Part shown: positions 8,853 through 64,000 of the stretch, piece after piece | How positions within the stretch are numbered: the first letter of the stretch is position 1 | Layout: each line of letters opens with the position of its first letter | Origin: a virus | Lineage: Duplodnaviria; Caudoviricetes | Virus record (IMG/VR): IMGVR_UViG_3300033073_000489 | Coordinates: 18,781-82,780 of that record | Reading direction: 5' to 3' (one strand) | Length of the DNA stretch: 64,000 bases | Program-made: the position numbers and the translations under genes | The notes under the pieces: generated by a model | What the model was told of the DNA's origin: nothing | Seen by the model: the letters and a program-made list of their open reading frames with translations, nothing else | Database searches by the model: none

Positions 8853-9190
8853 TTGTCTACCACTAACCAATTTGTGTCGCTATTGTCAACTTGACAAATA
8901 ACGCCGTTGTAAACTCGCAACTTACCTTTGACTGTTTGGTTCTCCATGAACAATCTGCAACGACTATTTCGGTAATTGAAATAACCAACATCTACCCGAG
9001 ACTTGTTTACTTCACTTTCCAAAATAACATCGCCCTTTTTGATCTTTGGAAATTCCCCAACGCCCTCTTTGCAAACTGTAAGAGTTTCGTTAGCAACGAT
9101 ACCTTCGCGCTCAATTGATGCAGATGTTTGGCGGCAGTCTGCAAATGCAGAAGTGCAAAGGACTGCAAGAACTACAGTAAGGTATTTCAT
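8846..9190 (-). CDS. Secreted hypothetical protein
   Basis: Signal peptide (SAFA-D), four Cys. Confidence 0.65.
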   Translation of the reverse strand: MKYLTVVLAVLCTSAFADCRQTSASIEREGIVANETLTVCKEGVGEFPKIKKGDVILESEVNKSRVDVGYFNYRNSRCRLFMENQTVKGKLRVYNGVICQVDNSDTNWLVVDKW

Positions 9191-34081: not shown

Positions 34082-34103
34082 AATAGGACCCGGAGGTCCT
34101 ATT
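34082..34103. terminator. Bidirectional terminator
   Basis: AATAGGACC-CGGA-GGTCCTATT at the island's right border. Confidence 0.8.
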
Positions 34104-34566
34104 ATTCTGCATACCAAATTTCTGTAAAACCTTCGTCTTCGGTTGGCATTTCAAACCCAGCAATCATACTAGCAATAACGTGCTCTGGAATTTCTTTCCC
34201 AGGACGACTCCACAGTCTACGAATCAACTCCTTATGCTCTGGTGTCTTGAACACGACGGCAATATGCTCGTAGTTTGGCAGAGTGTTAAACTTACGCTTA
34301 CGGCTAGCAATAGTTGTTGAAGTTTGATCCCAGATTACATCTAAGTTGTTTGCTTGACAGACCAACGCTTGGTTTGCCATTAACCGAACAGCGATTGGCA
34401 TGTATTCAGTAAACACTTCAGAGTAAGTCTTACCTTGCTCCTTAGCGTATGCTTCTACAAAGTTGTCAGTAGACACTACAGGAATATCCTTAGCCCAGTC
34501 TTGGTTGTTAATCCAAGTAGACTTTCCAGATCCTGGAACACCGACTAATTGATAACACTTTGGCAT
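34102..34566 (-). CDS. P-loop kinase, polynucleotide-kinase-like (AAA_33)
   Basis: GVPGSGKST, WDQT...RK. Confidence 0.8.
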   Translation of the reverse strand: MPKCYQLVGVPGSGKSTWINNQDWAKDIPVVSTDNFVEAYAKEQGKTYSEVFTEYMPIAVRLMANQALVCQANNLDVIWDQTSTTIASRKRKFNTLPNYEHIAVVFKTPEHKELIRRLWSRPGKEIPEHVIASMIAGFEMPTEDEGFTEIWYAE

Positions 34567-34739
34567 TTTTGTAACCTTTCTATTTCATCAGCTGCCTCTT
34601 CCAGCAGGTCTGCTATACGATCTCTTGCACCTTCTTCAACACTCTTACGGCCAGGTATCTGTCGTCTAATCTCCGCCCGTTTGCGCAAACGGAAGACTAG
34701 ACTTTGTTCAGATACTGGCAAGTGACTTTCATCTTTCAT
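34545..34739 (-). CDS. Small hypothetical protein
   Basis: Start MKDES; LVFRLRKRAEIRRQI...DLLEEAADEI. Confidence 0.65.
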   Translation of the reverse strand: MKDESHLPVSEQSLVFRLRKRAEIRRQIPGRKSVEEGARDRIADLLEEAADEIERLQKCQSVIN

Positions 34740-35635
34740 GCTAATTGTTCCCTTACCCATGCTAGACGAGCTTGCTCGTCCATTGCTGTGTATTCTACTA
34801 TGTTAGCACGGATTGCGTCAACCAGTGGATAGTATTCTTCATCTAGATTGTGCTTAATGTCCTTGTTCAAGTCTACTAACTTATCTGTGCGTGGATTGCG
34901 AGCAACCCACTTTGAAGTTAGGTAGTATGGTGACTTGATCTTAGCACTCACACCTTCGTCAGTATAGAATACATAACCTTCATGCTTACATTCCTTAGCC
35001 AACTGTTCCAAACGTGCCATGTTAGTTGTAACACTTTCTGCCCAGAAACAGTTTAGGCTACGAGCAAAGTCCATTAGGATGTATGGGTCATGTAAGATCT
35101 TAGAGCCGAACACGTTTTCGCGCCAGCCTAACAAATACATACCCGACTTTTCTGGAATGATATGTGGATCACTTGGATGCACACATTCAAACATAAAAGT
35201 CACTCCCTTGCACTCTGCGTTGCCTAGTGCCATTTGCCAGTCAGCCCAGCACATATGAGTTAGCATCATTTCTTTTGCCATTGCTACATATGGGCTGTCT
35301 GTGCTACCAGTAGTAGACACTAGGATGTCTCCGTTGTGCCAAGTCATAGCAACCATGAACCCGTTTATCTTACGGAACGCTGTAACCTTAGTATCGCCGG
35401 ATAGCTTTGGAGCTTCCTTTTCAATACCGTAGTTATAGATCTTTGTGAATGGATATGTAACTAGGTTAAAATCCTTGTCCACAATAGACCCACGACATTC
35501 TGCAATGTAGTCGTTCCACAAGTTGTCGTAGAATACCTTCTTCTTATACTTTAATACAAAGAGCCCGTCACTACATTCCTTCATGTTAACCAATCCAGAA
35601 GTAGCAACGTAGTTCTTTAACTCATCCTTAAACAT
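34736..35635 (-). CDS. RNA ligase (T4 Rnl1-like)
   Basis: ECRG, PFTKIYNY, motif I RKINGFM, FECVHP, HEGYV, KIKSPYY. Confidence 0.85.
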   Translation of the reverse strand: MFKDELKNYVATSGLVNMKECSDGLFVLKYKKKVFYDNLWNDYIAECRGSIVDKDFNLVTYPFTKIYNYGIEKEAPKLSGDTKVTAFRKINGFMVAMTWHNGDILVSTTGSTDSPYVAMAKEMMLTHMCWADWQMALGNAECKGVTFMFECVHPSDPHIIPEKSGMYLLGWRENVFGSKILHDPYILMDFARSLNCFWAESVTTNMARLEQLAKECKHEGYVFYTDEGVSAKIKSPYYLTSKWVARNPRTDKLVDLNKDIKHNLDEEYYPLVDAIRANIVEYTAMDEQARLAWVREQLA

Positions 35636-36176
35636 GATGACCCTTAATTTCTTTGTCCTTGATCATACGTATAGCACGATCCAAGCCAATTACAATTTCT
35701 CCAGTTGAGTCCATACCCACATCTAATGCGCGATACTTTTCCAACCCGCTTACACCACCGTGCAAGTGTCCATGAAAATGCAAAGCTCCTCTGTGCATTT
35801 GATCCCACTCAGCGATTGGATAGTGGAACATAACAATCTTGTGACCGTCATACGTCATATCCAAATACTTGTGAACTTCCTTAAATGCATTACGGAAAGT
35901 TACATCCATCAATGTCTTGCGATCGTGGTTACCTTCAATCAAAATCTTTGTGCCGTTCAAACGATTAATCATTCTACCAGCATCGCTACCTGACATGAAC
36001 GCTACATCACCTAAGATGTAAACTGTGTCTTCGGGTTGAACCTTGTGGTTCCATTCCTCAACCATAGCATTATTCATGTAGGTAACATCGTCATTAAAAC
36101 GTGCTCGCGTCTGTGGGCAGAACTTCATAATGTTCTTATGCCCAAAGTGCAAGTCACTTGTAATCCATGTTTTCAT
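35628..36176 (-). CDS. Calcineurin-like phosphoesterase
   Basis: SDLHFGH, LGD, GNHD, HYP, HGHLH, DVG. Confidence 0.9.
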   Translation of the reverse strand: MKTWITSDLHFGHKNIMKFCPQTRARFNDDVTYMNNAMVEEWNHKVQPEDTVYILGDVAFMSGSDAGRMINRLNGTKILIEGNHDRKTLMDVTFRNAFKEVHKYLDMTYDGHKIVMFHYPIAEWDQMHRGALHFHGHLHGGVSGLEKYRALDVGMDSTGEIVIGLDRAIRMIKDKEIKGHHV

Positions 36177-36374
36177 TTATTCACCTACAAATTCTTTTAC
36201 CCATTCAAAATGAGTTTCGCTGGCCTTAACCCACTTAAACTGCTCTCGACGTCTGTTGATCTTGTCGAAGTCAAAGCAAATAAAGATCCAGCCCTTTTCT
36301 TCTGAGAACTGCACAGATTCAGCAACCCGAACAATCTGCACAATCCTGTCCTTAAACTTTGCTACGATCATCAT
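36177..36374 (-). CDS. Hypothetical protein
   Basis: 65-aa ORF in the operon. Confidence 0.6.
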   Translation of the reverse strand: MMIVAKFKDRIVQIVRVAESVQFSEEKGWIFICFDFDKINRRREQFKWVKASETHFEWVKEFVGE

Positions 36375-36383
36375 ACTGGCTCC

Positions 36384-36665
36384 TTACATGGACCAGTAAG
36401 TCTCCGAAGCTGGATTGCAACACCAAGGAGTGTCGCGATCAATTTGGACATCTTTACCGGTCATCAAATTCTTAACTGTTTTCATTGTTGGGAAATATTC
36501 AAAACGATAGCCCAACTTTGCAGGATACAAACTAAACAATTCGGCGCATTCACGCTTCATGCTCGCTTCATCGCGGGCTTGCCAAACTGTAGTAGAAACA
36601 AGACGCTCACCTCGCTTAGTGCGCTTGTCCAATTTGTAGATATACAATGTCCAATCTTGTTTCAT
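36384..36665 (-). CDS. Hypothetical phage protein
   Basis: YKLDKRTKRGER...TPWCCNPASETYWSM. Confidence 0.7.
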   Translation of the reverse strand: MKQDWTLYIYKLDKRTKRGERLVSTTVWQARDEASMKRECAELFSLYPAKLGYRFEYFPTMKTVKNLMTGKDVQIDRDTPWCCNPASETYWSM

Positions 36666-36696
36666 TTCGCTCTCCTATGTGTTTCAGTATATGTAT

Positions 36697-36725
36697 ATTA
36701 TATGCTCAAACGGCTAAGGCGTCAA
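36697..36725 (-). promoter_or_regulatory. sigma70-type promoter of the RNA-repair operon
   Basis: TTGACG-N17-TATAAT. Confidence 0.8.
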
Positions 36726-36754
36726 CCAGAGAGTTGTTGTATTAATACAACACT

Positions 36755-36946
36755 TTACCAATCTTCGACACCGCTAATCTCAATGTTAAACGAGCCCTGT
36801 AGCCCGCCAGCATCAAGTGGAAATGTCATCGTAGTGACGCTTCCAATTCCACTGCTAGAATCTTGGTCTAGTTCAAAAATTTCTACTTCTGGAAACTTAT
36901 CCAAAACTTCTTGAATTTTGTCGATGTCTTTTCTAGTTAAGTGCAT
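36755..36946 (-). CDS. Hypothetical protein
   Basis: 63 aa, DSSSGIGS. Confidence 0.65.
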   Translation of the reverse strand: MHLTRKDIDKIQEVLDKFPEVEIFELDQDSSSGIGSVTTMTFPLDAGGLQGSFNIEISGVEDW

Positions 36947-37413
36947 CAGTCTATACTCCTAAATGTGCGCCAATCATCAAGATTGGGCTTTTCGTTTTCG
37001 TCGTATGTCCAGCCCAATGCCTTCATCATACGATGCTTGACTAACAAGTTAGGGCTACGGAAACGACCAGTATCCTGGAAGCCCATCATGACACCAACTT
37101 CACAAACTGCACCCGAACGGCAGATACCTGCAAAGCAATGAACAACAACGTTCATGTGGTTGTCCTTTGCGTGTTGCAACAGGCGAACTAGCTCGTCGGC
37201 TTGTTCTTGACTGCAACGCATTTCTTCGTCGTCTACGTGATCATTCTTTTCTACATCCAAGAATTCAAAGTTATGAATTTCCTTGAACTTGTGCGCAGGA
37301 GTAGGACGCCAGCTTGCAGGATCAGTAATACTGATCAGCATACTGTTCTCCCCTGCTTCGTGATGGAACCGCTTTGGAATGTCATCAGCGGCGACATTTT
37401 CAATCCATGGCAT
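36946..37413 (-). CDS. Cys-based protein/tyrosine phosphatase-like protein
   Basis: VHCFAGICRS (CX5R). Confidence 0.8.
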   Translation of the reverse strand: MPWIENVAADDIPKRFHHEAGENSMLISITDPASWRPTPAHKFKEIHNFEFLDVEKNDHVDDEEMRCSQEQADELVRLLQHAKDNHMNVVVHCFAGICRSGAVCEVGVMMGFQDTGRFRSPNLLVKHRMMKALGWTYDENEKPNLDDWRTFRSID

Positions 37414-37508: not shown

Positions 37509-38918
37509 TTAGCTAAGGTCGTAGCGTGGGACCATTACAGTCTTAAGCATGATACCTTCTGGAGTGAATTGGTCCAGATCAGCGGACAGCAAAGCTGTCA
37601 TGATGCTTGGGCTAAATCCGCTAACTAGAGCGGCTCCAGACTTGTCTGACTTAACAGGAACGTTACCGCTACTGTTCAAGTTCCAGAACACAACTTGTGG
37701 TGCGGTATAACCCGCATCAGCATACTTGCGTTCGATCATTTCCATTGCGCTGTCGTCGAAACGAGCGCATTGGTTGAACTGCATGTCTGACAAGATTAGC
37801 AACATCTTTGGCATGTCGCTAGCTGGGACGTTACCCTTAACTGCAACGCTTAGGATCTTGTCCATAGCGGCATGCAAGTTAGTGCTCATTTCCCAGTTGC
37901 TGGTCGACATTTGTTCGACCTTTTGAACAATGTTACCCTTTAGAGTAACAAGTTGTGGCTTGCTAGAGAAAGTCAAGAATGTGTCCTTGAACACGCCCTT
38001 GTTCTTGTCTGCAAGATACAAACCTAGTCCAACCGCTACATCCAAACAACGAACAGTCGAACCTGGAACAGATGTTGTCATCGAACCAGATACGTCAACT
38101 AGAGGCAGGATACTTGCGTCACCTACGTAGTTAGGCAGAGCGTCCCATTGTGCGATCACATGGTCTGTTTCTGTCTTGTTCAGCTTGGTGTAGCTGTGTG
38201 CAATGCCCTTCAACACATCATGTGGGTAGATTGCTGAGGCGTTAACCTTAACAGTCTTATCACCACTTGTCAACTTGGCCACATACTCTGCGAACGCAGG
38301 TGTGTGACGGTTGAATGCCTTCTTGTAGTTGCGAGCAGCCACAGAAGGAACGTGTGAGAAGTTGATGTTATCCCAGTCGTTGGCACACATTTGTGTTTCA
38401 ACAACCTTGGTAAGTGCCACAAGGCTCTTACGATATTGCTTTGGAGTCATTCCAAAGAACGCACGGATTTCCTGTGCGATTTGACCCTTACGAGGAGTCC
38501 ACTTTGCAGCCAAGCCATTACGAGCACGAAGTGCATCGCCTAGCATAGTGTAAGCGGCGCTCTTAAGAGCAGGAGTAGAGAAGACAAAGATGTCGTCCCA
38601 ACGTCCCACTTCAGGCGCCTTCTTTAGCAAAGCCAAAGCGGCGTCTGGGTCACGCTTTTCCAAGTGAACAAGAATGTCACGGAAAAGTTGACGTTCACCC
38701 GCACCACCACGGACATCACGTGCCCATTGTGCGATGCGTAGAGCAACGTCTTGGTTTTCAACATAAGCGGCTGTAAAGTCGCCTACGATGTTCTTACCAC
38801 GGCTTGCGCCAATGTTGTAAAACAGGTCAACTGTAGCCTTGGCTGTTGACTTACGTGCCTTCATACCGTTAGCGGTGCGGGCTTCTTGATTTGCTACTGC
38901 GTTTACAAATGCGTTCAT
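37509..38918 (-). CDS. DUF2828 / TROVE(Ro60)-like protein with vWA domain
   Basis: RDVRGGAGER, WDD, AAKWTPR, vWA MIDAS DVSGSM, ILSDMQF, VFWNL, VSGFS; Ro60 relationship is inferred. Confidence 0.8.
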   Translation of the reverse strand: MNAFVNAVANQEARTANGMKARKSTAKATVDLFYNIGASRGKNIVGDFTAAYVENQDVALRIAQWARDVRGGAGERQLFRDILVHLEKRDPDAALALLKKAPEVGRWDDIFVFSTPALKSAAYTMLGDALRARNGLAAKWTPRKGQIAQEIRAFFGMTPKQYRKSLVALTKVVETQMCANDWDNINFSHVPSVAARNYKKAFNRHTPAFAEYVAKLTSGDKTVKVNASAIYPHDVLKGIAHSYTKLNKTETDHVIAQWDALPNYVGDASILPLVDVSGSMTTSVPGSTVRCLDVAVGLGLYLADKNKGVFKDTFLTFSSKPQLVTLKGNIVQKVEQMSTSNWEMSTNLHAAMDKILSVAVKGNVPASDMPKMLLILSDMQFNQCARFDDSAMEMIERKYADAGYTAPQVVFWNLNSSGNVPVKSDKSGAALVSGFSPSIMTALLSADLDQFTPEGIMLKTVMVPRYDLS

Positions 38919-38931
38919 TTTAATTACCTTT

Positions 38932-38988
38932 CAGAATGTGTTTTTTTTTCGATATGCTTGAAAATTTAAAGTTGCTGTTAACATTCTA
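38932..38988 (-). ncRNA. CAGCAA-scaffold RNA copy A (5' UTR of TROVE-like gene)
   Basis: AGAAUGU-UAA-CAGCAA...ACAUUCUG directly followed by AAAGG SD and AUG. Confidence 0.7.
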
Positions 38989-38997
38989 TGTTTCTAG

Positions 38998-39236
38998 CAG
39001 GATGAGCGGAACAGTTTTTATTTTCTGGTTGGCCCCATCCCCTGTATATTGGTTCAGTTCCCCAACCCTAGCTGTCCTTGTGTCTGCGACAGCGCATATA
39101 TGTCTTTCCATAAGTCAACAGTTCCATTAGCGTTATGGTTTATACATTTCTGTATTGCCACTACAGCCGTTCCACGGGCCGCCGTCTACTGCATGAACGG
39201 TTTCAGTATAAAGTTAAAGTTGCTGTAATCATCCTA
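38998..39236 (-). ncRNA. CAGCAA-scaffold RNA copy B (long, GGA-rich insert)
   Basis: AGGAUGA-UUA-CAGCAA...UCAUCCUG. Confidence 0.75.
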
Positions 39237-39243
39237 TGATTAA

Positions 39244-39408
39244 CAGGATCGTTGTTGACTGCTTTTATTAGACTCAGGCCATCACTCTGAGCTTGTTGGT
39301 CTATTTCAATAGCAACCTTCAACGTCTCCAGGCGAACCTTTTGACTCCAGCCGACTACCATAGGGTCCAACGATCCATAGTAATATGAATGTTGCTGATA
39401 CGATCCTA
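39244..39408 (-). ncRNA. CAGCAA-scaffold RNA copy C
   Basis: AGGAUCGU-AU-CAGCAA...ACGAUCCUG. Confidence 0.75.
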
Positions 39409-39440
39409 AAACTCTCTGCAAGTTGCCTTGCTATGTGTCT

Positions 39441-39469
39441 ATTATAGTATAGATCAAACTGCTTGTCTA
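39441..39469 (-). promoter_or_regulatory. sigma70-type promoter for copies C, B, A and the TROVE-like gene
   Basis: TAGACA-N17-TATAAT. Confidence 0.7.
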
Positions 39470-39493
39470 GCCTTTTGGCTAAACTGAATAAAA

Positions 39494-39607
39494 CAGGATA
39501 CTATTCTTTGACGAATGCTCTACCTAATGAGCTATTTTTCCCTAGCGGAAAAAGATGGAATCGAACCACCTACCTATCGTTTGGATAGTTTTGCTGTGAG
39601 TATCCTA
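39494..39607 (-). ncRNA. CAGCAA-scaffold RNA copy D, YrlA-like permuted tRNA mimic
   Basis: AGGAUACU/AGUAUCCU encloses a hairpin, T arm GGUGG-UUCGAUU-CCAUC, loop-closed acceptor stem UUUUUCC/GGAAAAA and D arm GCUC-AUUAGGUA-GAGC. Confidence 0.85.
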
Positions 39608-39610
39608 AAT

Positions 39611-40552: not shown

Positions 40553-40651
40553 TGGTCCCTCTGGCAGGACTCGAACCTGCACACTCAGGCTTATCTGGCC
40601 TGTGCTTTGGCGAGGTATAAGCTCGCGTCTTTACCATTAAGCTACAGAGGG
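40553..40651 (-). tRNA. tRNA-Ile(UAU) with 29-nt extra arm
   Basis: GCGAG-CUUAUAC-CUCGC; extra arm AGGC-CAGAUAA-GCCU. Confidence 0.75.
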
Positions 40652-45410: not shown

Positions 45411-45484
45411 TGGTGCTCTTAGAAAGAATCGAACTTTCATTACCTCCATACCAAAGAGGCGTTCTACCATTTAACTATAAGAGC
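45411..45484 (-). tRNA. tRNA-Thr(GGU)
   Basis: Loop UUGGUAU. Confidence 0.88.
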
Positions 45485-45488
45485 AAAA

Positions 45489-45597
45489 CAGGATGATGTA
45501 GTATTGCCGGGAATCGAACCCCAATTTCAACTACGGTCCCCAATTGGACGGCCTGGCAGAACAATGGCGCCAAAAAGTGTTTGCTGGATTCATCCTA
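45489..45597 (-). ncRNA. CAGCAA-scaffold RNA copy E (partial tRNA-like insert)
   Basis: AGGAUGA-AUC-CAGCAA...UCAUCCUG; insert has GGG-UUCGAUU-CCC. Confidence 0.75.
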
Positions 45598-45601
45598 AAC
45601 T

Positions 45602-45929: not shown

Positions 45930-46018
45930 TGGAGGAGGGATAGTAGAATCGAACTCTAACCGCTTTCGCAGTCCATCTGTTTTCAAGACAGTGCTGGGCC
46001 CAGCCCAGATAACCCTCC
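45930..46018 (-). tRNA. Atypical tRNA-Ser(UGA)
   Basis: Loop CUUGAAA, long extra arm, CUGGG/CCCAG D stem, bulged T stem, U73. Confidence 0.65.
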
Positions 46019-46109
46019 ATAATAAAAACGCACTCGTCACTTTTCACGACGGTGGTGTGCAGTCCTTACAACCTAACTTATAGCTAGGTCAAGTGCGTTT
46101 TTATTATGG
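46017..46109 (-). ncRNA. Structured spacer pairing the upstream tRNA CCA with the downstream tRNA 5' GG
   Basis: CCAUAAUAAAAACGCACU / AGUGCGUUUUUAUUAUGG, perfect 18 bp. Confidence 0.7.
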
Positions 46110-46227
46110 CCCCGCCCCGTGGATTCGAACCACGATCTCGTCCTTGACATGGAATTGTGTATTATGCTGACTGTATCCTTAACAGGATAACCTTTTAATA
46201 CGTGTGCTACCATTACACCAAGGCGGG
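46107..46227 (-). tRNA. 121-nt tRNA-like gene with expanded anticodon domain
   Basis: Normal acceptor, D and T arms, G73-CCA; insert carries UAUCC-UGUUAA-GGAUA and UCC-AUGUCAA-GGA. Confidence 0.7.
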
Positions 46228-46235
46228 TTAAATTG

Positions 46236-46589: not shown

Positions 46590-46597
46590 AAATTAAA

Positions 46598-46656
46598 CAG
46601 GATGCATTTACTTTTTTCCGAATAAAAGAAATGTAATGTTTGCTGTTAGCATCCTA
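46598..46656 (-). ncRNA. CAGCAA-scaffold RNA copy F (short)
   Basis: AGGAUGC-UAA-CAGCAA...GCAUCCUG. Confidence 0.75.
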
Positions 46657-46660
46657 AAAC

Positions 46661-47666: not shown

Positions 47667-47674
47667 AAATAAAA

Positions 47675-47738
47675 CAGGATGTATTTTTACGGTTTAGATT
47701 AAAAGTCTAATGTATAAATTTTTGCTGTTAACATCCTA
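47675..47738 (-). ncRNA. CAGCAA-scaffold RNA copy G carrying a Lys(UUU)-type anticodon stem-loop
   Basis: AGGAUGU-UAA-CAGCAA...UUAGA-CUUUUAA-UCUAA...ACAUCCUG. Confidence 0.8.
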
Positions 47739-47743
47739 AAACT

Positions 47744-48081: not shown

Positions 48082-48156
48082 TGGTGGAAGCCGAGGGAAT
48101 CGAACCCTTCTAGACACGATGCTTGCAAGGCAACGCCGTAGCCCACTACTGCCCCC
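48082..48156 (-). tRNA. tRNA-Ala(UGC) variant with reduced D arm
   Basis: G3:U70, D arm GUAG-UGGG-CUAC, loop CUUGCAA. Confidence 0.75.
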
Positions 48157-48162
48157 AAATTT

Positions 48163-48236
48163 TGGCACCCCCACCAGGATTCGAACCTGGAACGACTGAG
48201 TCAAAGTCAGTTGTGTTACCATTACACCATGGAGGA
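48163..48236 (-). tRNA. tRNA-Gln(UUG)
   Basis: Loop CUUUGAC, G73. Confidence 0.88.
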
Positions 48237-48247
48237 ACAGATTAAAA

Positions 48248-48371
48248 CAGGATAGAATTTAACATAGTGCTACCGTTACACCAAACACCGCCTAAGCGAT
48301 GCCGCGGAGTCGAACCGCTCCCTTACTTTTCAAGAGTAGTAGTTGTTATTAATTTTGCTGTTACTATCCTA
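48248..48371 (-). ncRNA. CAGCAA-scaffold RNA copy H, YrlA-like permuted tRNA mimic
   Basis: AGGAUAG/CUAUCCU encloses UACU-CUUGAAA-AGUA, T arm GCGG-UUCGACU-CCGC, closed acceptor GGCAUCGC-UUAG-GCGGUGUU and D arm GUG-UAACGGUAG-CAC. Confidence 0.85.
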
Positions 48372-48382
48372 AAACTTCTTTG

Positions 48383-48458
48383 CTCCGCATTTGAGAATCG
48401 AACTCAACTAACCACTGATTAACAGTCAGGTCCATGCACCTTGCTCGGATTTTGCGGA
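48383..48458 (-). tRNA. tRNA-Asn(GUU) variant without encoded CCA
   Basis: Loop CUGUUAA, G73; leader CUUCUUCGC pairs with trailer GCAAAGAAG. Confidence 0.65.
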
Positions 48459-48537
48459 GCGAAGAAGTCTTTGCATTAGTTTCTATATCCCCCATTGAAA
48501 CTAACAAACATTGAGTGTATTGCTACACTATTTGCCC

Positions 48538-48612
48538 TGGCGCCGTAGACGAGAATCGAACTCGCCTTAGTCGGATAGACAATCCGTTGCCCTCCCAGAG
48601 AACTACTACGGC
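48538..48612 (-). tRNA. tRNA-Asp(GUC) variant
   Basis: Loop UUGUCUA (U37), G73. Confidence 0.8.
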
Positions 48613-48617
48613 ATATA

Positions 48618-48695
48618 TGGTGCAGCCAAAGGACTCGAACCTTTGCGGGAAACTAGTATGCGGCGCACAGGGCGCCTACCCCATTCCATTGCTGC
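48618..48695 (-). ncRNA. Aberrant tRNA-like RNA (acceptor, T arm and CCA; no canonical D or anticodon arm)
   Basis: GCAGC/GCUGC-ACCA, AAAGG-UUCGAGU-CCUUU; internal GGCGC-CCUGU-GCGCC. Confidence 0.6.
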
Positions 48696-48700
48696 AAAAT

Positions 48701-63764: not shown

Positions 63765-63982
63765 TGCTATTTTGGGTGACAAGGTATAACTACCTCGCAA
63801 GTGCAGTTTCTTAGGCTGCTAGTTCGAAACGCTCAGCGTTTGCAGCCTTAGCTACGAATGCTGGCACTTCGAAGTGCTTGAATGTAGATGCTGTTGCATT
63901 TACTAGTTTTGCTTGATTTACGGTCATCGCCTACCGTGTTGCCGTCTTCAATATCTACCCCTGTCGAAACCATGGCAGGCCC
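63765..63982 (-). ncRNA. ssrA: tmRNA, 5'/coding piece (probably permuted two-piece gene)
   Basis: 5' GGGCCUGCCAUGGUUUCGACAGGG; UAAAU before resume GCA; tag ORF 63897-63811 ATASTFKHFEVPAFVAKAANAERFELAA. Confidence 0.85.
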
Positions 63983-64000
63983 ATTATAAAACACACTAGA

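What the first reader, a model, noticed from the sequence alone, without database searches (positions are those of the whole stretch)
48248..48371. Second permuted tRNA mimic (copy H) with a Ser(UGA)-type loop
Seen: UACU-CUUGAAA-AGUA (same loop as tRNA-Ser(UGA)), T arm, 8-bp acceptor stem closed by UUAG, and Gly/Gln-type D arm. The topology matches copy D but the sequence is unrelated. Inference: independent capture of a tRNA into the scaffold, suggesting a general route for making decoys.
Basis: partly seen in the sequence, partly recalled or inferred. Interest (0 to 1): 0.75.

Follow-up and report, generated by a model that had tools for sequence, protein, structure and literature searches.

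The report
Permuted tRNA mimic on Ro60-partner RNA
A 124-base RNA gene in a giant phage's tRNA cluster carries a rearranged tRNA look-alike on a conserved "handle", and it is most likely a partner RNA of the phage's Ro60-shaped protein, a pairing not found in Rfam or the papers searched.

Summary
On the minus strand, 48248-48371 folds into a 7-bp terminal helix enclosing four hairpins. These are an anticodon-arm look-alike (loop CUUGAAA), a T arm, an 8-bp loop-closed acceptor-like stem, and a D arm.

At least 18 distinct relatives in IMG/VR phage contigs keep these helices, with compensatory changes.

The "independent tRNA capture" reading is not supported:
- The lineage is conserved.
- Most relatives have only a 4-bp GNRA-capped stem in place of the acceptor.
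- The insert is no closer to any resident tRNA than tRNAs are to each other.

The terminal helix plus CAGCAA "handle" recurs nine times in the window. It also lies beside DUF2828/DUF7788 genes in seven distant cultured phages. The window's copy of that protein models confidently (pLDDT 91), and its 12 best PDB matches are all Ro60.

Best reading: a YrlA-like tRNA-mimicking Y RNA with a different handle and a different protein family, sitting upstream of an RNA-repair cassette. Protein binding and function are inferred, not shown.

The handle resembles Dictyostelium Class I RNAs, with a sub-threshold Rfam match.

This scan has already noted the same handle/DUF2828 system in more than 120 other genomes.

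The parts
48248..48371 (-). Whole element (copy H): handle plus permuted tRNA-like cargo
   Evidence: Fold. Homologues. Covariation. Consensus fold.
48364..48370 (-). Handle, 5' strand of the terminal helix (AGGAUAG)
   Evidence: Pairs with 48249-48255. The helix covaries among the nine window copies and among homologues.
48355..48360 (-). Handle motif CAGCAA, 3 nt after the helix
   Evidence: Invariant in all 18 H homologues. Present in 9 minus-strand copies in the window. Present beside DUF2828 genes in 7 distant phages.
48324..48338 (-). Anticodon-arm-like hairpin UACU-CUUGAAA-AGUA (it occupies the place of the 'V' arm in YrlA drawings)
   Evidence: Pair 35-47 switches between AU (11) and UA (6). 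Loop variants CUGUAAA, CUGAAAA and one 5-nt loop occur in relatives.
48304..48318 (-). T arm GCGG-UUCGACU-CCGC
   Evidence: The outer pair is AU 11 / GC 6 / CG 1.
48284..48303 (-). Loop-closed acceptor-like stem, 8 bp plus UUAG
   Evidence: Relatives replace it with three other self-complementary hairpins: 4 bp + GNRA (the majority), about 6 bp + UUUA, and 9 bp + GCAA.
48267..48281 (-). D arm GUGU-AACGGUA-GCAC
   Evidence: It is invariant in homologues, but that was fixed by the search pattern.
48248..48255 (-). Handle, 3' strand CUAUCCU plus the invariant G
37509..38918 (-). Gene for the Ro60-fold protein (DUF2828 + DUF7788; phrog_850 'RNA-binding protein'), the proposed partner
   Evidence: Pfam and PHROGs. 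The AF2 model has pLDDT 91. The top 12 PDB matches are all Ro60/Rsr/phiRo60.
38926..39610 (-). Four tandem handle RNAs (copies A-D) directly upstream of the protein gene; D is the other permuted tRNA mimic
   Evidence: D scores 31.3 bits against Rfam YrlA, below the cut-off.
45483..45600 (-). Handle RNA copy E, whose cargo includes a T-arm-like hairpin
   Evidence: Homologues.
46107..46231 (-). 'X' form: a tRNA-Asp(GUC)-like body with normal ends and CCA, with the handle inserted as a GUUA-capped hairpin in the anticodon stem. This is the unpermuted counterpart of H.
   Evidence: Sequence. ARAGORN in intron mode calls tRNA-Asp with a 47-nt insert. Relatives.
46592..46659 (-). Handle RNA copy F (short hairpin cargo)
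   Evidence: It matches Rfam Dicty_Class_I_RNA end to end at 26.3 bits, below the cut-off of 41.5.
47669..47741 (-). Handle RNA copy G (short hairpin cargo)
34102..37413 (-). RNA-repair-type genes downstream on the same strand: a dual-specificity phosphatase, a phosphoesterase, an Rnl1-like RNA ligase and a polynucleotide-kinase-like P-loop protein
   Evidence: Pfam and PHROGs.

Best explanation
Copy H is a small non-coding RNA made of two modules.

Module 1 is a 'handle': the 5' and 3' ends pair in a 7-bp helix, with NNN-CAGCAA just inside on the 5' side and an unpaired G after the 3' strand. Module 2 is a circularly permuted tRNA look-alike. In order it has an anticodon-arm-like hairpin, a T arm, a loop-closed acceptor-like stem and a D arm.

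The proposed steps, all inferred:
1. H is transcribed with the minus-strand tRNA cluster.
2. It is released by the nucleases that trim the flanking tRNAs.
3. Its handle binds the phage's Ro60-fold protein (DUF2828/DUF7788), much as Y RNAs bind Ro60.
4. The tRNA-shaped cargo presents a tRNA body to proteins that recognise tRNA. Candidates are processing or modification enzymes, host tRNA-cutting defence nucleases, or the phage's own ligase/kinase repair enzymes.

In this phage the acceptor-like stem has grown to 7-8 bp. By analogy with Mycobacterium smegmatis YrlA, it might therefore be opened by RNase P and receive CCA.

What is shown: the structure, its conservation, the recurrence of the handle beside this protein family, and the Ro60 fold of the protein. 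What is inferred: binding, processing and function.
For: Structure:
- MFE fold.
- 18 distinct homologues with 95% of cells paired, compensatory changes in four helices, and four alternative self-complementary acceptor-like hairpins.
- RNAalifold consensus.
- The un-permuted sequence is called a tRNA by ARAGORN, against 0 of 500 shuffles.

Handle family:
- Nine minus-strand copies in the window, with helices that differ but stay complementary.
- More than 120 IMG/VR stretches hold the exact handle motif.

Link to the protein:
- 2-5 handles per locus lie next to the DUF2828 gene, on its strand, in seven phages: mycobacteriophage Rumpelstiltskin, the FelixO1-like coliphage pinkbiff, cyanophage BUCT-ZZ01, Listeria LMTA-94, Bacillus Thrax2, Campylobacter PC14 and Enterococcus Bop. 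Shuffled loci give 0.24 hits each.
- Three of those handles, one in Bacillus and two in Enterococcus, also carry permuted tRNA-like cargo.

Protein:
- Pfam DUF2828 + DUF7788 and phrog_850 'RNA-binding protein'.
- AF2 model with pLDDT 91 and pTM 0.90.
- The best 12 PDB matches are all Ro60, Rsr or Thermus phage phiRo60, full length, TM 0.35-0.65, probability 1.00.
- Homologues in mycobacteriophages are annotated 'Ro-like RNA binding protein'.

Precedent:
- YrlA Y RNAs have a Ro-binding end plus V, T, acceptor and D arms in this order. M. smegmatis YrlA, with a 7-bp acceptor stem, is cut by RNase P and CCA-tailed (PMC4201824).
- In the P100-like Listeria phage CKA15, the tRNA-adjacent protein CKA15_055 has Rsr as its best HHpred match. 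Three very abundant unannotated transcripts lie within 2 kb upstream and were proposed to be Y RNAs (PMC12282133). I infer from the matching gene context, not from a sequence comparison, that CKA15_055 belongs to this family.

Context: a phosphatase, a phosphoesterase, an Rnl1-like ligase and a PNK-like kinase follow the Ro-like gene.
Against: - No binding, expression or processing data exist for this phage.
- H lies 9.3 kb from the protein gene, farther than the 4 kb typical of YrlA.
- The protein does not match Pfam TROVE or any solved chain by sequence.
- The handle motif is CAGCAA, not the GNCGAA/CGAA motif of known Ro partners.
- Rfam YrlA does not detect H at all.
- No handle was found within the flanks fetched for Vibrio phage nt-1 or an Erwinia jumbo phage that carry the protein.
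- In Dictyostelium, RNAs with a look-alike handle are reported to bind an RRM protein, Rnp1A, not a Ro-like protein (PMC7919456).
- Covariation within the H family is modest, with 5 pairs showing double-sided changes, because the homologues are close relatives.
Confidence: 0.62

Rival explanations
1. The handle RNAs, H included, are real structured RNAs, but their partner is not the Ro60-fold protein. The partner could be a host protein, an RRM-type protein as reported for Dictyostelium Class I RNAs, or the neighbouring ligase or kinase. On this view the genes sit together only because both belong to the tRNA/RNA-repair region.
For: - In Dictyostelium, Class I RNAs (terminal stem, 11-nt motif next to the 5' strand, 3' CUGU) bind the RRM protein Rnp1A directly (PMC7919456).
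- Copy F matches the Class I model end to end at 26.3 bits.
- H is 9.3 kb from the Ro-like gene.
- nt-1 and the Erwinia jumbo phage have the protein with no handle within the flanks fetched.
Against: - Handles abut the DUF2828 gene in seven phage lineages with otherwise unrelated gene neighbourhoods. One of them is a mycobacteriophage with no annotated tRNA gene in the 7.3-kb stretch fetched.
- The protein has the fold of a known RNA-handle binder, Ro60.
Confidence: 0.15
2. H is a cis-acting spacer of the tRNA operon. It would be a processing, stability or folding element that guides the nucleases cutting the polycistronic tRNA precursor, with no life of its own as an RNA-protein particle.
For: - H and copies E-G sit exactly between tRNA genes on the tRNA strand.
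- In most relatives H starts a few bases after a tRNA's CCA.
Against: - The same handle occurs away from tRNA genes, in tandem next to the protein gene (window copies A-D; Rumpelstiltskin; Listeria phage).
- The cargoes are elaborate and conserved, which a spacer would not need.
- The transcripts upstream of the Rsr-like gene of the Listeria phage CKA15 are among the most abundant RNAs in infection (PMC12282133).
Confidence: 0.1
3. H is a genuine circularly permuted tRNA gene. The handle would be removed and the ends joined by the phage's ligase, kinase and phosphoesterase. RNase P and CCA addition would open the acceptor loop, giving a decoding tRNA(UGA). This would resemble the permuted tRNA genes of the red alga Cyanidioschyzon merolae.
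For: - The pieces rejoined in tRNA order pass ARAGORN.
- The window copy has a 7-8-bp acceptor stem.
- Healing-and-sealing enzymes are encoded nearby.
- In the unpermuted 'X' relatives, removing the handle insert leaves a perfect 5-bp anticodon stem, and that stem covaries across the insert: CGU..ACG versus CUU..AAG.
Against: - Most H homologues have a 4-bp GNRA-capped stem that cannot become an acceptor stem.
- The anticodon-like stem has 4 bp and the T stem 4 bp plus a mismatch.
- A UGA anticodon sits on a body with no long variable arm.
- The loop changes to GUA- and GAA-type triplets among close relatives.
- Several X-type relatives have 8-nt loops and A at position 32.
- No splicing endonuclease or bulge-helix-bulge motif was seen.
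- The phage already has a normal tRNA-Ser(UGA).
Confidence: 0.04

Closest known systems
YrlA-type bacterial and phage Y RNAs bound by Ro60/Rsr (Rfam RF02553; Chen et al. 2014, PMC4201824)
   Same: - Two modules: paired 5'/3' ends carrying a short conserved motif on the 5' side, and a tRNA-like domain.
- The domain has the order stem-loop, T arm, loop-closed acceptor stem, D arm.
- Encoded on the same strand as a Ro60-fold protein, several RNAs per locus, some without tRNA-like parts (like YrlB).
- Variants exist with a long acceptor stem, and one of them is cut by RNase P and CCA-tailed.
   Different: - The handle motif is CAGCAA after a 7-bp helix, not GNCGAA(N)G.
- The protein is DUF2828/DUF7788, not Pfam TROVE.
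- The Rfam model does not detect H, and scores copy D at only 31 bits against a cut-off of 69.
- H is embedded in a tRNA gene array 9.3 kb from the protein gene.
Class I RNAs of dictyostelid social amoebae (Rfam RF01414; Kjellin et al. 2021, PMC7919456)
   Same: - A short covarying stem joins the 5' and 3' ends.
- A conserved 11-nt motif lies next to the 5' strand. Its conserved positions 6, 9, 10 and 11 are C, C, A, A, which fits ..CAGCAA.
- The 3' end is CUGU, whose C pairs with the conserved 5' G.
- The rest of the RNA is variable.
- Copy F of the window matches the model over all 56 positions (26.3 bits, E 0.022).
   Different: - The match is below the curated cut-off of 41.5 bits.
- Class I RNAs are 42-65 nt, eukaryotic, have their own promoter element, and are reported to bind an RRM protein.
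- None is reported with tRNA-like cargo.
- H is 124 nt and was not matched.
Thermus phage phiLo phiRo60 with Yrl1/Yrl2 (PMC12135203; PDB 9KOP, 9L5Y)
   Same: - A phage-encoded Ro60-fold protein with adjacent small RNAs that have a 5'-3' stem and a motif in an internal loop.
- The window protein's model matches 9KOP and 9L5Y (TM about 0.55).
   Different: phiRo60 is a recognisable Ro60 homologue, its RNAs carry the CGAA motif, and no tRNA-like cargo is described for them.
Circularly permuted tRNA genes (Cyanidioschyzon merolae) and two-piece permuted tmRNA
   Same: The gene order puts the 3' half before the 5' half, with the acceptor strands adjacent.
   Different: Those mature into functional tRNA or tmRNA with free acceptor ends. 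In most members of the H family the acceptor is a 4-bp capped stub, and there is no tag reading frame and no Rfam tmRNA match.

Membership tests
YrlA (Rfam RF02553) | Covariance-model score at or above the gathering score (69 bits) | tested here: not met
   H gives no match at E<=10. Copy D scores 31.3 bits, full length, E 2e-6.
YrlA (Rfam RF02553) | tRNA-like domain in the order stem-loop, T arm, loop-closed acceptor stem, D arm, between paired 5'/3' ends | tested here: met
   The architecture is as described in PMC4201824.
YrlA (Rfam RF02553) | GNCGAA(N0-1)G motif near the 5' end | tested here: not met
   The sequence there reads AGGAUAG-UAA-CAGCAA.
YrlA (Rfam RF02553) | Encoded within about 4 kb of, and on the same strand as, a Ro60 orthologue with a TROVE domain | tested here: not met
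   The strand is the same, but H is 9.3 kb away. There is no PF05731 match in the 82.8-kb record. The neighbouring protein is DUF2828/DUF7788, though its fold is Ro60-like.
Ro60/Y RNA particles in the broad sense | Partner protein has the Ro60 fold (a ring of HEAT-like repeats plus a vWA domain) | tested here: met
   AF2 model with pLDDT 91. The top 12 Foldseek PDB matches are all Ro60/Rsr/phiRo60.
Ro60/Y RNA particles in the broad sense | The RNA is physically bound by the protein | not testable with these tools
   The only evidence is co-occurrence in seven distant phage lineages.
Dictyostelium Class I RNA (Rfam RF01414) | Terminal stem, motif ending CAGCAA next to the 5' strand, 3' CUGU | tested here: met
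   The handle of H and the other copies shows these features. The family features are from PMC7919456. The exact 11-nt motif sequence comes from my memory and was checked only against the positions the paper names.
Dictyostelium Class I RNA (Rfam RF01414) | Model score at or above the gathering score (41.5 bits); length 42-65 nt | tested here: not met
   H is 124 nt and gives no match. Copy F reaches 26.3 bits.
tRNA (RF00005) | Contiguous cloverleaf with free 5'/3' acceptor ends, detectable by tRNA finders | tested here: not met
   Not called by ARAGORN or Infernal in its native order. It is called only after manual re-ordering.
Permuted tRNA genes (C. merolae type) | 3' half upstream of 5' half | tested here: met
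Permuted tRNA genes (C. merolae type) | Matures to a canonical tRNA (7-bp acceptor stem, 5-bp anticodon and T stems) | tested here: not met
   The anticodon-like stem has 4 bp and the T stem 4 bp plus a mismatch. The acceptor is only 4 bp plus GNRA in most family members.

The most novel reading that the evidence does not exclude
The handle RNAs are exchangeable baits on a Ro60-like platform. Each cargo displays a tRNA body or anticodon arm (triplets seen across relatives: UGA, GUC, GUU, GUA, CAU, UCU, GCU). The cargo would capture or divert host tRNA-cutting defence nucleases, or recruit the adjacent ligase/kinase repair enzymes to cut tRNAs. The window's copy H, with its expanded 7-8-bp acceptor stem, would be opened by RNase P and CCA-tailed into a two-piece tRNA-like RNA. 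The shared handle would also link this phage system by descent to the unexplained Class I RNAs of social amoebae.
Probability: 0.15. Interest if true: 0.85.

Novelty: new variant of a known kind. Interest (0 to 1): 0.6.

Why it matters
- DUF2828/DUF7788 proteins occur in at least 706 cultured phage genomes and thousands of metagenomic proteins, and have no established function. A defined partner RNA family would make that function testable.
- Copy H shows that the tRNA-mimic cargo known from bacterial YrlA also exists on a different handle and with a different protein family.
- The same cargo exists in both permuted (H, D) and unpermuted (X) topologies. This argues that the tRNA shape itself is what matters.
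- The setting is a large tRNA array followed by ligase, kinase and phosphoesterase genes. This points to the conflict over tRNA cleavage between phages and bacterial defences.
- The sub-threshold likeness of the handle to Dictyostelium Class I RNAs hints at a much wider distribution.

Tried and rejected
- **Rfam.** All of Rfam at gathering thresholds over the window gave only tRNAs and a partial permuted tmRNA. At E<=10 around H there was no YrlA, tmRNA, ribozyme or Class I match.
- **TROVE.** A Pfam TROVE search of the record found nothing.
- **PDB by sequence.** A sequence search with the protein gave nothing meaningful. Only the fold search worked.
- **Cultured phages.** BLAST of 48100-48700 found no homologue of H, only of the neighbouring tRNA-like element and tRNA-Gln.
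- **Extra helix.** An extension of the terminal helix (UAACA with UGUUA, from the MFE fold) pairs in only 77% of cells with no convincing covariation. RNAalifold proposes a different pairing of the invariant AGC, also without covariation. Neither was adopted.
- **First hairpin.** The alternative register chosen by the MFE fold and RNAalifold has only one-sided changes and some broken pairs.
- **Capture from a resident tRNA.** There is no special similarity to any of the 43 tRNAs.
- **Dimeric-tRNA artefact.** This false positive is known for YrlA searches, and one such case (L204) turned up in my pattern search. It does not apply to H, whose acceptor strands pair with each other across a 4-nt loop.
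- **Self-cleaving ribozyme or group I intron.** I considered both for the handle. There is no Rfam support, and the handle is too small for group I.
- **Rotation control.** Blind rotation of the other copies' cargo gave ARAGORN calls only for D and H.
Full report
**Setting.** The window is part of an 82.8-kb IMG/VR virus record that CheckV rates 23% complete, so it comes from a very large uncultivated phage. Between about 39.6 and 48.9 kb the minus strand carries most of the window's 43 ARAGORN-called tRNA genes. A partial permuted tmRNA lies at the window's end. The finding lies in a 300-nt gap between tRNA-Gln (48163-48236) and tRNA-Asp (48538-48612).

**The observation.** Read on the minus strand, 48371-48248 contains the following:
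- a terminal helix AGGAUAG/CUAUCCU, followed by G;
- UAA-CAGCAA just inside the 5' strand;
- a hairpin UACU-CUUGAAA-AGUA;
- a T arm GCGG-UUCGACU-CCGC;
- an 8-bp hairpin closed by UUAG, with three G.U pairs;
- a D arm GUGU-AACGGUA-GCAC.

The minimum-energy fold gives the terminal helix enclosing four hairpins, at -35.2 kcal/mol with z = -2.5. The 7-nt loop equals that of the resident tRNA-Ser(UGA). The D arm resembles that of tRNA-Gln.

Neither ARAGORN nor Rfam calls the element in its native order. I rejoined the pieces in tRNA order: acceptor 5' strand and D arm, then the first hairpin, T arm and acceptor 3' strand. ARAGORN then calls a tRNA(UGA) at its default threshold, and none of 500 shuffles is called.

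The weak points as a tRNA are:
- a 4-bp anticodon-like stem;
- a 4-bp T stem with an A.G mismatch at the fifth position;
- one extra U between the acceptor and D stems;
- no long variable arm.

**Conservation.** BLAST against loci fetched from IMG/VR found H homologues at 80-90% identity. A pattern scan brought the set to 18 distinct sequences.

On that alignment 95% of cells in the proposed pairs are standard pairs, against 38-50% when partners are slid. Compensatory changes occur in four places:
- the first hairpin (A-U 11 / U-A 6);
- the T stem (A-U 11 / G-C 6 / C-G 1);
- the terminal helix;
- the acceptor-like stem.

RNAalifold independently recovers the terminal helix, T arm, acceptor-like hairpin and D arm.

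The most telling feature is the acceptor-like hairpin. Most relatives have AGCC-GNAA-GGUU. The window has 8 bp plus UUAG. L203 has about 6 bp plus UUUA, and L213 has 9 bp plus GCAA. Four unrelated self-complementary sequences at one position show that a hairpin is selected there. They also show that a 7-bp acceptor stem is not a family requirement.

The loop of the first hairpin is CUUGAAA in 14 of 18 sequences, CUGUAAA in two, CUGAAAA in one, and a 5-nt loop in one.

**The scaffold.** The 5' block AGGAU-N5-CAGCAA occurs nine times on the minus strand of the record, all between window coordinates 38972 and 48370, allowing one mismatch in two of the copies.

Eight copies have the form helix, NNN-CAGCAA, cargo, complementary strand, G. 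Their helices differ in sequence but remain complementary, and their cargoes range from about 35 to 215 nt. Four copies stand in tandem directly upstream of ORF 37509-38918.

The ninth copy (46231-46107, here 'X') is different. It is a tRNA-Asp(GUC)-like body with normal ends and an encoded CCA. The handle helix is closed by a GUUA loop and inserted, with its CAGCAU motif, into the 5' strand of the anticodon stem. ARAGORN in intron mode calls it tRNA-Asp with a 47-nt insert.

H and D are therefore circular permutations of X. In H and D the RNA ends lie at the handle and the acceptor is capped. In X the handle is capped and the acceptor is open.

The same X form occurs elsewhere:
- twice downstream of the homologous gene in Synechococcus phage BUCT-ZZ01;
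- in Aeromonas phage Aeh1;
- in many IMG/VR loci, with loops carrying GUC, UCU, CAU, GUU, UGA, GCU or GUA.

Several X forms have 8-nt loops and A at position 32. The part of the anticodon stem that spans the insert covaries: CGU..ACG versus CUU..AAG.

**The protein.** ORF 37509-38918 matches Pfam DUF7788 and DUF2828 and PHROG 850 'RNA-binding protein'. It has no Pfam TROVE match and no sequence match to any solved chain.

An AlphaFold2 model built on 66 diverse homologues is confident, with pLDDT 91 and pTM 0.90. Its twelve best Foldseek matches in the PDB are all Ro60 proteins: Xenopus and human Ro60, Deinococcus Rsr, and Thermus phage phiRo60. The matches are full length, with TM 0.35-0.65 and probability 1.00. 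The next matches are isolated vWA domains at E > 0.03.

Homologues occur in 706 cultured phage records. Mycobacteriophage annotators call them 'Ro-like RNA binding protein'.

**Co-occurrence.** I scanned the neighbourhood of the homologous gene in ten distant cultured phages for the rule: 7-bp helix, 3 nt, CAGCAA (or its seen variants CAGCAU/CUGCAA), cargo, complementary strand, G. Seven of them have 2-5 such elements on the gene's strand, mostly abutting the gene:

| Phage | Handle elements |
|---|---|
| Mycobacteriophage Rumpelstiltskin | 3 |
| Coliphage pinkbiff (FelixO1-like) | 4 |
| Cyanophage BUCT-ZZ01 | 4, plus 2 of X type |
| Listeria phage LMTA-94 | 3 |
| Bacillus phage Thrax2 | 5 |
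| Campylobacter phage PC14 | 2 |
| Enterococcus phage Bop | 3 |

Shuffled loci give 0.24 hits each.

One Bacillus element and two Enterococcus elements carry permuted tRNA-like cargo. The Bacillus one has the same T loop (UUCGACU) and a near-identical D arm to H. The remaining three phages were Aeromonas phage Aeh1, Vibrio phage nt-1 and an Erwinia jumbo phage. Aeh1 showed no element of this form, only the X-type forms noted above. nt-1 and the Erwinia phage showed no handle within the flanks fetched.

Independent experimental hints come from a P100-like Listeria phage. Its tRNA-adjacent protein CKA15_055 has Rsr as its best HHpred match and is found in virions. Three of the most abundant transcripts of the infection map to unannotated DNA within 2 kb upstream, and the authors suggested they are Y RNAs (PMC12282133). 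I did not compare CKA15_055 with the window protein, and I could not check that those transcripts coincide with the handles.

**Comparison with known systems.**

*YrlA.* YrlA Y RNAs of bacteria and some phages have paired ends with a GNCGAA(N)G motif, and a tRNA-like domain with V, T, acceptor and D arms in exactly the order seen in H. M. smegmatis YrlA, which has a 7-bp acceptor stem, is cleaved by RNase P and CCA-tailed in vivo (PMC4201824). H shares the architecture. It differs in three ways: the motif, the Pfam family of the protein, and the Rfam model, which scores copy D at 31.3 bits (cut-off 69) and does not see H.

The paper describes a short covarying terminal stem, an 11-nt motif next to the 5' strand with conserved C, C, A, A at positions 6, 9, 10 and 11, a variable middle, and a 3' CUGU whose C pairs with the 5' G (PMC7919456). 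The phage handle fits this description. Copy F matches Rfam RF01414 over the whole model at 26.3 bits, below the cut-off of 41.5. I treat this as a resemblance, not as membership.

**What H most likely is and does.**

Shown:
- a conserved, structured RNA of two modules;
- membership of a large handle family;
- recurrence of that family beside a Ro60-fold protein.

Inferred:
- H is cut out of the tRNA precursor by the enzymes that process its neighbours.
- Its handle binds the Ro60-like protein.
- Its cargo offers a tRNA shape to tRNA-recognising proteins.

The genes that follow the protein gene are a phosphatase, a phosphoesterase, an Rnl1-like RNA ligase and a PNK-like kinase. They place the system in the RNA-repair context that also surrounds bacterial Rsr/YrlA. 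Whether the cargo acts as a decoy for anticodon nucleases, a tether for repair or processing enzymes, or something else cannot be decided here.

An independent capture of a tRNA is not supported. The lineage is conserved, its acceptor is usually a stub, and no resident tRNA is specially similar (best identity 0.67; the tRNA-to-tRNA median is 0.59 and the 95th percentile 0.68).

**Rivals.** A functional permuted tRNA gene is unlikely for the family, because of the stub acceptor, short stems, changing triplets and missing variable arm. A mere operon spacer does not explain handles away from tRNAs or their elaborate conserved cargo. A different protein partner remains possible.

**Status.** The same handle/DUF2828 pairing has been noted by this scan in more than 120 other genomes. 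I found no Rfam family above threshold and no paper that defines the RNA family.

Noticed in passing
window 46107-46231 (-): 'X': a tRNA-Asp(GUC)-like gene with encoded CCA. Its anticodon stem is interrupted by a 47-nt insert holding the handle helix (GUUA-capped) and CAGCAU. Removing the insert leaves a perfect 5-bp stem, CGUCC/GGACG. Many relatives carry other triplets, some with 8-nt loops. It could be an intron-like insert or a retained extra arm; this is unresolved.
   Followed up: partly
window 48380-48460 (-): A tRNA-like element directly upstream of H. It has an 8-bp acceptor stem, an odd D region and a CUGUUAA (GUU) loop, and neither ARAGORN nor Rfam calls it. It is about 80% identical to unannotated DNA in many Acinetobacter T4-like phages and in cyanophage BUCT-ZZ01, and it occurs in 23 fetched loci.
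   Followed up: partly
window 38926-38932 and 38918 (-): The 3' strand of handle copy A ends 8 nt before a Shine-Dalgarno-like AAAGG and the AUG of the Ro60-like gene. Binding of the protein to this handle could regulate its own translation.
   Followed up: no
window 45930-46018 (-): By eye, an uncalled class II tRNA-like sequence with acceptor GGAGGGU, a long variable arm, CCA, and the same CUUGAAA (UGA) loop as H and tRNA-Ser(UGA).
   Followed up: no
window 48613-48700 (-): By eye, another uncalled tRNA-like sequence. It has a T arm (AAAGG-UUCGAGU-CCUUU) and ends GGCUGCACCA, between tRNA-Glu and tRNA-Asp.
   Followed up: no
window 45483-45600 (-): Handle copy E carries what looks like an unpermuted mini tRNA-like cargo: a short acceptor-like helix, a D-like hairpin with GG, and a T-arm-like hairpin, with no anticodon arm. 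It is conserved in four fetched loci.
   Followed up: no
L232:9193-9314 (Aeromonas phage Aeh1): The 122-nt feature annotated in GenBank as 'tRNA-Val (CAC)' looks like an X-type tRNA-like RNA with a handle variant (CCGCAA). Read my way it has a UCA-type loop. A second X-type element (GUU loop) lies just upstream at about 9060-9176.
   Followed up: partly
window 63811-64000 (-); L224:3780-4076: A permuted (two-piece) tmRNA gene is cut by the window's end. The related cyanophage BUCT-ZZ01 has a complete one.
   Followed up: no
window 40556-40651 (-): A 96-nt tRNA called by Rfam but not by ARAGORN. It has a UAU-type anticodon loop and a long variable arm.
   Followed up: no
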